12,737 nt of DNA from a virus. Taxonomy: Duplodnaviria > Heunggongvirae > Uroviricota > Caudoviricetes. Location: the IMG/VR virus record IMGVR_UViG_2526164663_000020, one strand, 5' to 3'. The notes below the pieces were generated by a model. That model was given only the letters and a program-made list of their open reading frames with translations, had not been told where the DNA came from and did not search any database. Positions within the stretch are counted from its first letter, which is position 1; each line of letters starts with the position of its first letter. Of the stretch, positions 6,434 through 8,171 are shown in pieces. The position numbers and the translations under genes were made by a program.

Positions 6434-6566
6434 TTTTGGGAACTCCTGGCTGATTAAGTACGTCGATGAGTCGCTTCCATCCGTCACGTAATTTACGGGT
6501 GATTCGTTCAAGTAAAGATTCGGAAGGGCAGCCAGCAACAGGCCACCCTGCAATGGCATATTGCAT
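6426..6566 (-). CDS. cIII: CIII (FtsH/HflB inhibitor that stabilises CII)
   Basis: MQYAIAGWPVAGCPSESLLERITRKLRDGWKRLIDVLNQPGVPKNG is near-identical to the lambda CIII N-terminal 46 residues. AGGAG lies 7 nt upstream of the ATG at 6564..6566. It is 46 aa here against 54 aa in lambda as I recall it. Confidence 0.9.
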   Translation of the reverse strand: MQYAIAGWPVAGCPSESLLERITRKLRDGWKRLIDVLNQPGVPKNG

Positions 6567-6586
6567 GGTGTGCTCCTTATTTATAC

Positions 6587-7288: not shown

Positions 7289-7672
7289 TCACCTCGCCGT
7301 CAGTTGTTTTGATTTCCGGTAGCCTGCCGCGTAAATGGCTACGTTTGGAAGACATACACCAGTTTCTGGTTGCTTATGTCCAAACTCATTCGCGTACACA
7401 ATGGCCGCTCGCTCCAGATTGCGTCTGTATTCTTTCTGTTGCCAGATCACGTCCTGTGCCATGAACTTAATTGGCTTAGCGTCTTCTATGCGCTCAGGCG
7501 TTTCGTGAGTACCTTTAGCCTGAATCTGCGCTCTGCTTAGAGTAGGGCGGTGTAATACTTCTGAACTTATTGCTTCTTCGCGGGCCAGTACGCCGTTAGC
7601 TAATGCCTTTGCCTTTAAACGCTCACGACGACGAGAACGTGAATTGCCTTTGAACTGAGTTCTGCGTGTCAT
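7289..7672 (-). CDS. N: N-type transcription antiterminator, P22 gp24-like
   Basis: 127 aa with an N-terminal arginine-rich motif (GNSRSRRRERLKAKALA) and a C-terminus …LPNVAIYAAGYRKSKQLTAR matching my recollection of P22 gp24 (…LPGVALYAAGHRKSKQITAR). GGAGG lies before the ATG at 7670..7672. Confidence 0.8.
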   Translation of the reverse strand: MTRRTQFKGNSRSRRRERLKAKALANGVLAREEAISSEVLHRPTLSRAQIQAKGTHETPERIEDAKPIKFMAQDVIWQQKEYRRNLERAAIVYANEFGHKQPETGVCLPNVAIYAAGYRKSKQLTAR

Positions 7673-7682
7673 ATAGACCTCC

Positions 7683-7826
7683 TGATGAACTTTGGTGGTG
7701 TGGTAGGTGGGAGACCCATTTCGACCTGTTTCGGCCTACTTCAATTCGGCAATAGTCCCGCAGGCCTCGCCGCTTTACGTGCGACATATTCCCGTCCATG
7801 AACCCTTCACCACACCCCAAAGTTCA
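7683..7826 (-). promoter_or_regulatory. Long-range imperfect dyad in the N leader, a candidate RNase III-type regulatory hairpin
   Basis: 7683..7706 (gatgaactttggtggtgtggtagg) pairs with 7803..7826 (ccttcaccacaccccaaagttca), enclosing about 95 nt. The promoter-distal arm ends next to the N Shine-Dalgarno. Confidence 0.45.
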
Positions 7827-7837
7827 CTTTGGTTATT

Positions 7838-7852
7838 GCGCTTTGTCAGCGC
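7838..7852 (-). promoter_or_regulatory. nutL boxB hairpin, P22 type
   Basis: The minus strand reads GCGCUGACAAAGCGC, a 5-bp stem with a GACAA loop, as I recall for P22 boxB. The same loop occurs in the plus-strand nutR candidate at 10747..10761. Confidence 0.65.
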
Positions 7853-7859
7853 CGTAGAT

Positions 7860-8140
7860 TCATATTCGAATCGTTGTATATTCACCGCCCTGGTGAGTAA
7901 TGCGTCCTGCTGATGGGTGAACTTTATCGGAGTGATAAATTAATGGCAATAGCAAAATGATAAATTCTCTTGGTTTTCAAATATCGTATTGATTCTTATG
8001 GTGTTTTATTTTGTTGTAGGAATTCGACAGGATAAATAAAGAGATTTGAGGGAGATCTGGATTGCGTTGTTTAGCAAGTTGTATCTATTTATTTTTCAAC
8101 AAATACAATTGGTTATGTGTTTTTAGGTGTGGGGATCGTG
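7860..8140 (-). promoter_or_regulatory. Putative PL promoter and OL operator region
   Basis: AT-rich non-coding stretch between the tImm-like terminator and nutL. Contains the motif (T/G)GATAAAT at 7933..7940, 7958..7965 and 8030..8037 and a palindrome TTTATC-N5-GATAAA at 7924..7940; the same motif family recurs between cI and cro. The -35 and -10 elements were not pinned down. Confidence 0.4.
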
Positions 8141-8171
8141 AGGCAAAGAAAACCCGGCGCTGAGGCCGGGT
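8141..8171 (-). terminator. Intrinsic terminator on the minus strand (tImm-like) ending the cI/TAC transcript before PL
   Basis: Minus-strand RNA: ACCCGGC-cucagc-GCCGGGU followed by UUUCUUUG (stem 8152..8158 with 8165..8171), 8 nt after the stop at 8180. Confidence 0.7.

What the first reader, a model, noticed from the sequence alone, without database searches (positions are those of the whole stretch)
7683..7826. Large dyad in the N leader between boxB and the N ribosome-binding site
Two arms of about 24 nt (7683..7706 and 7803..7826) are complementary apart from a few bulges and enclose about 95 nt. The promoter-distal arm abuts the N Shine-Dalgarno. The lambda N leader contains an RNase III-processed hairpin that modulates N translation, and this looks like a longer analogue. 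The ORF track places two ORFs here (7623..7820 minus, 7707..7913 plus), which I consider artefacts of the structured leader.
Basis: partly seen in the sequence, partly recalled or inferred. Interest (0 to 1): 0.45.

Follow-up and report, generated by a model that had tools for sequence, protein, structure and literature searches.

The report
N-leader RNase III-type hairpin
This is a real, conserved RNA hairpin just ahead of the phage's early regulator gene N. It is the counterpart of the lambda hairpin that RNase III cuts to set how much N is made, so it is a known kind of element. Its interior, however, proves to be a swappable module.

Summary
The dyad is real. On the N-sense (minus) strand, 7826..7804 pairs with 7707..7686: 10 bp, a bulged A at 7696, 8 bp, a 2-nt bulge, then 3 bp. 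The helix encloses 96 nt and ends 2 nt before the N Shine-Dalgarno. It folds far better than shuffles (z about -4 to -4.6).

The window is a Stx1a-converting lambdoid phage, and its pL leader is identical to that of 933W. The base of the helix carries the same strands as the lambda N leader (CUUUGGGGUGUG / CACACCACCAAAG). It is therefore a homologue of lambda's RNase III-processed hairpin, not merely an analogue.

Of 214 unique N leaders from three N families, 206 show the same scaffold. The stem covaries strongly: 12 of 19 pairs change on both sides, and 0 of 500 shuffles reach this. G:U outnumbers A·C 56 to 4, which places the structure in the sense-strand RNA. Both overlapping ORFs carry stops or frameshifts in relatives and match no protein family.

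RNase III cleavage itself was not testable here. Beyond the finding, the interior is an exchangeable cargo with 21 sequence types, some of them tRNA-like. The GU-rich 5' arm resembles rrn boxC. A conserved competing local hairpin lies beside boxB.

Verdict: a new member of a known kind.

The parts
7921..7949 (-). pL-like sigma-70 promoter (TTGCCA, 17-nt spacer, TAAAGT). The inferred transcript start is at about 7914.
   Evidence: The consensus scan found it. The sequence ATCAGCAGGACGCA at 7914..7901 equals the start of the lambda pL transcript as aligned. Identity to 933W ends at 7913.
7838..7904 (-). nutL, taken from the annotation of the identical 933W sequence. boxB, GCGCUGACAAAGCGC, is at 7852..7838. 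A spacer dyad, GAUUCGAAUAUGAAUC, is at 7872..7857.
   Evidence: The 933W record annotates nutL at locus L001 1739-1805, which maps to window 7838-7904.
7817..7832 (-). Local hairpin CCAAAG-UGAA-CUUUGG (-4.8 kcal/mol). It competes with the long-range lower stem for the CUUUGG strand.
   Evidence: It is conserved in lambda-type leaders (UUCAAAGC/GCUUUGGG) and covaries in L101-type leaders (CCACA/UGUGG).
7804..7826 (-). 5' arm of the hairpin, GU-rich and boxC-like: UGAACUUUGG GGUGUGGU ga AGG.
   Evidence: Folds, covariation and comparison with rrn boxC.
7708..7803 (-). Interior ('type A cargo'), a multibranch region. Proposed helices: P2, 7785..7769 (GUCGC-ACGUAAA-GCGGC); P3, 7766..7760 paired with 7729..7723; and a small hairpin at 7718..7708.
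   Evidence: Alignments and pair counts. P2 and P3 keep pairing through changes, while the small hairpin has no covariation support. The same cargo occurs behind many different N alleles.
7686..7707 (-). 3' arm of the hairpin, CCU ACCACACC A CCAAAGUUCA, with A7696 bulged.
   Evidence: Its mean unpaired probability in the full leader is 0.065.
7678..7683 (-). Shine-Dalgarno AGGAGG of N, 2 nt downstream of the helix and 5 nt upstream of the AUG.
   Evidence: Read from the sequence.
7289..7672 (-). N antitermination gene (127 aa).
   Evidence: phrog_271 at E 3e-39, Pfam PF25694 N_peptide at E 2e-15, and annotation of identical genes in 933W and others.

Best explanation
The dyad is the RNA hairpin of the pL leader that separates nutL from the N ribosome-binding site. 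It is the homologue of the RNase III-sensitive hairpin of the lambda N leader.

Proposed sequence of events:
1. Transcription starts at about 7914 and passes nutL (boxB 7852..7838).
2. Eleven nt later it makes the GU-rich 5' arm, which can first pair locally with an upstream CCAAAG copy.
3. After the 96-nt interior, the 3' arm emerges and closes an interrupted helix of about 21 bp, which ends 2 nt from the SD.
4. The closed helix brings NUTL, with N and the Nus factors bound to it, next to the N start site, and it occupies the region about -14 to -35 from the AUG. This keeps N translation low.
5. RNase III cuts both strands of the helix near the conserved bulge. This detaches NUTL and the hairpin from the N message and raises N synthesis, so N output follows RNase III activity.

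Shown here: the helix, its strand, its conservation and covariation, its homology to lambda, and its position.

Inferred from lambda: cleavage by RNase III and the effect on translation.
For: Structure:
- The fold is much more stable than shuffles.
- The scaffold is present in 206 of 214 unique N leaders from three N families, against 5 of 4280 controls with a shuffled upstream part.
- Unconstrained MFE folding shows the long-range helix in 208 of 214 leaders, against 57 of 216 shuffles.
- Covariation on 50 distinct arm pairs: 93.7% of cells are paired against 77.7% in shuffles, 12 of 19 pairs change on both sides (137 cells), 0/500 shuffles reach this, and slid controls give 36-40%.
- G:U outnumbers A·C 56 to 4, so the selected structure is RNA of the N-sense strand.

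Homology: lambda has CUUUGGGGUGUG...CACACCACCAAAG at the same place, between boxB and the SD.

Literature:
- RNase III positively regulates lambda N mRNA (PMC9032294, citing Kameyama 1991).
- N leader processing has been described (PMC5371410, citing Steege 1987).
- N bound at NutL represses N translation, and the intervening leader is highly structured (PMC5725501, citing Wilson 1997 and 2002).

Alternatives excluded: there is no terminator-like site, and the ORFs are not conserved.
Against: - No cleavage data exist for this phage or for 933W in what I could read. The primary lambda papers (Kameyama 1991; Wilson 1997, 2002) are not held, so the cleavage positions and the size of the effect rest on my recollection.
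- Predicted SD accessibility changes only modestly between the full and the 'processed' leader. Simple SD occlusion by the helix is therefore not evident from thermodynamics alone.
- Columns 5-18 of the covariation alignment were chosen with a pairing threshold, which inflates the percentage paired. It does not inflate the number of pair types.
- H-19B/933W-type N has a reduced need for Nus factors (my recollection of Neely and Friedman 2000), so the autoregulatory part may differ from lambda.
Confidence: 0.8

Rival explanations
1. Scaffold plus cargo. The conserved basal helix is mainly an excision and delivery scaffold. The interior (type A cargo, 7803..7708) would be a functional structured RNA in its own right, released by RNase III cleavage as a stable RNA of about 110 nt. 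In sister phages it is replaced by other cargos, some of them tRNA mimics. This reading does not exclude the best explanation.
For: - There are 21 unrelated interior clusters on one scaffold, and 4 are shared between lambda-type and 933W/P22-type N.
- Type A cargo is 90-100% conserved in front of at least 10 different downstream genes and different nut sites.
- Long unpaired stretches of type A are nearly invariant even in the divergent L319 and L419 copies.
- Extra scaffold copies lie downstream of N in L268 and L278.
Against: - No Rfam family matches, and no tRNA call is made for the window's own cargo even at relaxed thresholds.
- Some leaders carry only a minimal 31-43-nt interior, or a plain perfect hairpin as in the L184 type, so a cargo is dispensable.
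- Conservation of type A may simply reflect recent horizontal spread.
- I found no report of a stable RNA from this region.
Confidence: 0.15
2. Tether only. [quoted passage not shown] It may also be helped to form by the antitermination complex, as with rrn boxC. In this phage it would not be cut by RNase III.
For: The 5' arm starts 11 nt after boxB and is GU-rich like rrn boxC, which is delivered to its downstream partner by the antitermination complex. The loop model of N autoregulation is described in PMC5725501.
Against: The helix has two turns of dsRNA and the same strands as lambda's processed stem. In rrn operons the boxC helix is itself the RNase III site. There is no reason to expect RNase III to spare it.
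Confidence: 0.08
3. The region encodes small proteins: ORF 7623..7820 on the minus strand, with an internal ATG at 7799, or ORF 7707..7913 on the plus strand.
For: Both ORFs are open in the window. A weak SD-like GAAGGG precedes the ATG at 7799. Two phage records annotate hypothetical proteins here.
Against: - Neither ORF has a PHROG or Pfam match.
- The sense ORF carries stop codons in phi80, VT2phi_272 and L285, and a frameshift in L319.
- The antisense ORF carries a stop in L086 (5 loci), L047 and L080.
- Other cargo types replace the whole sequence.
- About a third of the substitutions I tallied by eye in the sense frame are synonymous, roughly the neutral expectation (alignment).
Confidence: 0.02
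4. The dyad is a DNA-level or transcription-level signal: an intrinsic terminator or attenuator, a protein-binding palindrome, or a miniature mobile element.
For: It is a long inverted repeat, and it shows sharp presence/absence boundaries between related phages.
Against: - No U-run follows the stem, and the scan finds no terminator-like site there.
- G:U is strongly favoured over A·C, which argues for RNA of one strand rather than DNA.
- The median is one copy per genome and always at the same place (the N leader), in 499 of 5426 E. coli genomes, unlike a dispersed repeat.
Confidence: 0.02

Closest known systems
RNase III-sensitive hairpin of the bacteriophage lambda N leader (Steege 1987; Kameyama 1991; Wilson 1997, 2002)
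   Same: - It has the same position: pL, then nutL, then the hairpin, then the SD and N.
- It has the same basal-stem strands (CUUUGGGGUGUG / CACACCACCAAAG).
- It has the same bulged purine on the 3' strand.
- It has the same upstream competing CAAAG copy.
   Different: - The interior sequence is unrelated to lambda's (type A cargo, 96 nt, against about 90 nt in lambda).
- The stem is extended by 4 bp at the base, so it ends 2 nt from the SD rather than 8.
- The N protein and boxB are of the P22/933W type.
- Cleavage has not been shown for this phage.
Leader-trailer helix of E. coli rrn operons with boxC (RNase III site flanking 16S rRNA)
   Same: A nut-like site is followed by a GU-rich strand that pairs with a distant downstream strand. 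The resulting long helix loops out a structured RNA and is an RNase III substrate. The antitermination complex is thought to deliver the 5' strand to its partner.
   Different: - The boxC consensus UCUGUGUGGG is not matched exactly (here GGGGUGUGGUG).
[quoted passage not shown]
- The looped-out RNA is about 100 nt, not 16S rRNA.
- The downstream element is an mRNA start site.

This is an analogy, not membership.
tRNA-like structures and tRNA genes
   Same: In sister phages the same scaffold holds interiors with a canonical D-loop and T-loop, an acceptor-like stem of 7-9 bp, then an unpaired purine and CCA.
   Different: The window's own interior has no T-loop or D-loop and gets no ARAGORN call at any threshold tried. 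In the L286 type, the tRNA-like acceptor register does not place the scaffold's A-CCA at the tRNA 3' end.
Other RNase III-activated translation starts (lambda cIII, adhE)
   Same: A structure near the ribosome-binding site is opened by RNase III.
   Different: Those helices directly include the start region. Here the helix lies just upstream and also carries NUTL away.

Membership tests
Lambda-type N-leader RNase III hairpin | Lies on the pL transcript between nutL boxB and the N ribosome-binding site | tested here: met
   boxB is at 7852..7838, the hairpin at 7826..7686, the SD at 7683..7678 and the N AUG at 7672.
Lambda-type N-leader RNase III hairpin | Long-range helix of about two turns (20 bp or more) whose 3' strand ends next to the SD | tested here: met
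   There are 21 bp with two bulges, and z is -4.0 to -4.6. The helix ends 2 nt from the SD.
Lambda-type N-leader RNase III hairpin | Sequence homology of the basal stem to lambda | tested here: met
   CUUUGGGGUGUG (12 nt) and CACACCACCAAAG (13 nt) are shared with lambda L007.
Lambda-type N-leader RNase III hairpin | Helix maintained by compensatory changes across phages | tested here: met
   12 of 19 pairs have double changes, 0/500 shuffles reach this, and slid controls give 36-40% paired against 93.7% observed.
Lambda-type N-leader RNase III hairpin | Cleaved by RNase III on both strands | not testable with these tools
   This needs rnc+/rnc- RNA end mapping or in vitro cleavage.
Lambda-type N-leader RNase III hairpin | rnc-dependent stimulation of N translation, and relief of N-NUTL autorepression | not testable with these tools
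   This needs N-lacZ fusions. Only literature on lambda is available.
rrn boxC leader-trailer helix | boxC consensus UCUGUGUGGG, 18-19 nt after boxA, enclosing rRNA | tested here: not met
   The 5' arm is GU-rich (GGGGUGUGGUG) but does not match the consensus, and the cargo is not rRNA. It is an analogy only.
tRNA or tRNA-like structure | Cloverleaf with D-loop and T-loop, detectable by ARAGORN | tested here: not met
   No call is made for the window hairpin at default settings, with introns allowed, or at 80% thresholds. The feature is met or nearly met only by sister cargos (L286, L268, L015, L008).
Any Rfam family | Covariance-model match | tested here: not met
   Nothing reaches the gathering score, and the only E<10 hit in 7550..8000 is spurious (bxd_1, 12.6 bits). 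Sister leaders also give nothing.
Intrinsic terminator | GC-rich stem followed by a U-run | tested here: not met
   The stem is followed by UCAGGAGG, and no terminator-like site lies in the dyad.
Dispersed repeat or MITE (such as ERIC/IRU) | Many copies at unrelated sites | tested here: not met
   The median is 1 copy per genome that has it (499 of 5426 genomes), and it lies in N-leader context wherever it was inspected.
Small protein-coding gene | Reading frame conserved, or a protein family match | tested here: not met
   Relatives carry stops or frameshifts, and there is no PHROG or Pfam hit.

The most novel reading that the evidence does not exclude
The N-leader hairpin of lambdoid phages may be a conserved, boxC-like 'leader-trailer' scaffold that carries interchangeable structured RNA cargos. 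There are at least 21 cargo types, several of them tRNA mimics with canonical D-loops and T-loops. RNase III would excise the cargo as a stable small RNA. The window's type A cargo would then be a functional phage RNA that travels between phages independently of N and nut. The conserved competing hairpin beside boxB would time when the scaffold closes.
Probability: 0.15. Interest if true: 0.65.

Novelty: new member of a known kind. Interest (0 to 1): 0.35.

Why it matters
N is the first gene expressed after induction of a Shiga-toxin phage, and it gates all delayed-early expression, and through Q the toxin genes as well. A conserved RNase III-type control point in its leader would tie prophage development to the host's RNase III activity.

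The comparative picture gives a ready alignment for a new RNA family that Rfam lacks: one covarying scaffold in nearly all N leaders, with exchangeable interiors. It also gives a concrete phage parallel to the rrn boxC helix. Finally, it explains why gene callers keep placing spurious 'hypothetical proteins' in this intergenic region.

Tried and rejected
- Rfam scans of the window and of sister leaders found nothing for the hairpin.
- ARAGORN on the window and on all loci found no tRNA in the window's element.
- Protein reading: the ORFs have no family and are broken in relatives.
- Terminator reading: no U-run.
- Mobile-repeat reading: single copy at a fixed site.
- I suspected the cargo might be one of the known prophage sRNAs (AgvB, AsxR, Pas). 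Those map to the PR' moron region or elsewhere, not to the N leader.
- I tried to read the primary lambda papers (Wilson 2002 and 1997, Court 2007, Bubunenko 2013). None is held.
- The MFE interior of type A is not supported. Its long CGG-AAUA-GUC/GAC-UAUU-CCG helix is broken by substitutions in L295 and L094. The alternative P3 helix (GGCCUGC/GCAGGUC) is supported by double changes.
- The genome-contig scan with the N protein gave only 8 loci and added little.
- A first fuzzy-regex script timed out.

Full report
WHAT THE WINDOW IS. The 401 bases around the finding are 100% identical to several Stx1a-converting phages. From 7600 to 7913 they are also identical to 933W, Min27, phage 86 and others. 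ORF 7289..7672 (minus strand) is the antiterminator N (phrog_271 at E 3e-39; Pfam N_peptide at E 2e-15). The 933W record annotates nutL at the position that maps to window 7838..7904. boxB, GCGCUGACAAAGCGC, lies at 7852..7838. A promoter-like site (TTGCCA, 17-nt spacer, TAAAGT) at 7949..7921 sits just upstream of ATCAGCAGGACGCA at 7914..7901. That sequence is the same as the start of the lambda pL transcript, so the leader runs from about 7914 to 7673.

THE OBSERVATION. On the minus strand, 7826..7804 pairs with 7707..7686. The pairing is 10 bp, a bulged A at 7696, 8 bp, a 2-nt bulge, then 3 bp. It encloses 96 nt and ends 2 nt before the SD, AGGAGG, at 7683..7678. The element folds at -58.9 kcal/mol against -42.6 +/- 4.1 for shuffles (z -3.97). 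The 211-nt leader has z -4.62. In both cases 0 of 200 shuffles fold as well.

HOMOLOGY TO LAMBDA. The lambda leader (L007) has GGCUUUGGGGUGUGUG...CACACACCACCAAAGC followed by the SD at the same place. The window has GAACUUUGGGGUGUGGUG...CCACACCACCAAAGUUC. The alignment of the pL leaders shows the shared start, boxB position, basal-stem strands and SD, with unrelated interiors. The literature I could read states three things. RNase III positively regulates lambda N mRNA (PMC9032294, citing Kameyama 1991). The N leader is processed (PMC5371410, citing Steege 1987). N bound at NutL represses N translation across a highly structured leader (PMC5725501, citing Wilson 1997 and 2002). My recollection, unverified here, is that lambda is cut near +88 and +197. 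That is at the GG|GG and ACC|AAAG steps flanking the conserved bulge, and it leaves a leader of about 26 nt.

COMPARATIVE TEST. A distant BLAST of the leader showed three patterns:
- Full-length matches (933W, HK97, mEp phages).
- Matches to the hairpin alone in phages with other N genes (phi80, Louie, VT2phi_272). There it again lies between nutL and N.
- Matches to the flanks alone (BP-4795, Salmonella P22-like phages). There a different interior sits between the same arms.

I then fetched about 330 N loci from three N families. Of 214 unique 300-nt leaders, 206 have the scaffold: CUUUGG, an 8-bp upper stem, a bulged purine, then CCAAAG next to the SD. Only 5 of 4280 controls with a shuffled upstream part have it. 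The eight exceptions are variants or coordinate problems. Unconstrained MFE folding finds the long-range helix in 208 of 214 leaders, against 57 of 216 shuffles.

COVARIATION. On 50 distinct arm pairs, 93.7% of cells pair, against 77.7% after shuffling and 36-40% when the partner is slid by 1 to 3 columns. Twelve of 19 pairs show changes on both sides (137 cells; up to five standard pair types per position), and 0 of 500 shuffles reach this. One caveat applies: columns 5-18 had been selected for at least 13 of 14 pairs. That inflates the percentage paired but not the diversity of pair types. The unselected flanking columns behave in the same way. G:U outnumbers A·C 56 to 4 (37 to 3 in the unselected columns), so the constraint acts on the N-sense RNA and not on DNA or the opposite strand.

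THE ORFs. ORF 7623..7820 (minus) and ORF 7707..7913 (plus) have no PHROG or Pfam match. Among type A copies, the sense frame has stops in phi80, VT2phi_272 and L285, and a frameshift in L319. The antisense frame has a stop in L086 (5 loci), L047 and L080. Other phages replace the whole interior. Two GenBank records nevertheless annotate hypothetical proteins here.

OTHER READINGS.
- No terminator-like site lies in the dyad.
- No Rfam family matches.
- The element occurs in 499 of 5426 complete E. coli genomes, with a median of one copy and no annotation. It is therefore not a dispersed repeat.

MECHANISM. The best-supported reading is the lambda one. The helix closes as soon as the 3' arm is made. 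It holds NUTL and its bound proteins next to the N start site and covers about -14 to -35. RNase III then cuts the two-turn helix near the bulge and frees an N message with a short leader. The predicted opening of the SD itself changes little between the full and the cut leader. If the effect is as in lambda, it therefore more likely works through the NUTL complex and standby-site access than through direct SD pairing. This step is inferred.

BEYOND THE FINDING.
1. The interior is a cargo that is swapped. There are 21 sequence clusters of 31-200 nt on one scaffold, and four are shared between lambda-type and 933W/P22-type N. Type A precedes at least 10 different downstream starts. The breakpoints coincide with the conserved basal strands.
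2. Three clusters carry a canonical T-loop, GGUUCGAnUCC, and one also carries the D-loop AGCUCAGUUGG. A tRNA-like element of 71 nt on the same scaffold lies downstream of N in L268. The window's own cargo is not tRNA-like. Its P2 and P3 helices keep pairing through changes, but the support is thin.
3. The GU-rich 5' arm, 11 nt after boxB, parallels rrn boxC. That element is the 5' strand of the RNase III-cut leader-trailer helix and is thought to be delivered to its partner by the antitermination complex.
4. An upstream CCAAAG copy forms a local hairpin with the CUUUGG strand. It is conserved in lambda and covaries in the L101 type, which suggests an ordered or switchable folding pathway.

I found no description of points 1, 2 or 4 in the searchable literature. 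The primary lambda papers were not readable, however.

VERDICT. It is a known kind of element (the lambda N-leader RNase III hairpin) in a Stx phage. The sequence-level and covariation support is strong, but there is no direct cleavage evidence. The cargo and tRNA-mimic aspect is the only part that might be new.

Noticed in passing
window 7817-7832 (-): A short hairpin, CCAAAG-UGAA-CUUUGG, lies just 3' of boxB. It uses the same CUUUGG strand as the long-range stem, so the two are mutually exclusive. The same arrangement is found in lambda (UUCAAAGC/GCUUUGGG), and it covaries in L101-type leaders (CCACA/UGUGG). It may be a folding intermediate or a switch.
   Followed up: partly
window 7708-7803 (-), and loci L003, L004, L005, L220, L319, L329-L408: The interior of the hairpin behaves as an exchangeable module. 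There are 21 unrelated interior types on one scaffold. The window's type occurs at 90-100% identity in front of at least 10 different N alleles or start contexts, and in 499 of 5426 E. coli genomes, never annotated.
   Followed up: partly
L286, L289 and L291 (hairpin about 441-583 in L286); L015 841-983; L008 (minus strand); L268 1289-1368: Some interiors are tRNA mimics, with a canonical T-loop GGUUCGAnUCC, in one case a D-loop AGCUCAGUUGG, and an acceptor-like stem of 7-9 bp followed by an unpaired purine and CCA. L268 has such an element downstream of N, followed by an SD and an ATG.
   Followed up: partly
L009, L184, L315, L280, L275, L218, L018 (3' end of the interiors): Many otherwise unrelated interiors end in a 5-bp hairpin whose 9-nt loop reads AGAUAAGCA, AGAUCAGCA or similar. 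It lies directly against the 3' strand of the scaffold. This shared submotif has no known meaning.
   Followed up: no
L068 574-983; L278 1164-1322; L257: Three rearranged leaders. L068 has two hairpins in tandem (type C, then type A), separated by a duplicated SD-ATGACACGCAGA stub fused to half of boxB. L278 has a second scaffold copy downstream of N. L257 has a type A hairpin whose 5' arm has been replaced, leaving the 3' arm without a partner.
   Followed up: no
window 6521-6579 (-): Rfam Lambda_thermo (the cIII thermoregulator, RF01804) matches at 88.5 bits over the full-length model.
   Followed up: no
window 7913/7914: Identity to 933W and its relatives stops exactly at the inferred pL start. 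The immunity region (operators and repressor) is therefore of another type, while the whole transcribed leader is shared. This is a mosaic joint at +1.
   Followed up: no
window 8152-8171 (-): A terminator-like GC-rich hairpin followed by a T-run lies upstream of the pL region on the minus strand. A similarly placed 'tM' terminator is annotated in 933W, but I did not check whether the two correspond.
   Followed up: no
L002 976-1134 (phi345) and L005 1197-1331 (Louie): Public phage records annotate 'hypothetical protein' genes inside the nutL and hairpin region. The comparative data indicate these are false gene calls.
   Followed up: yes
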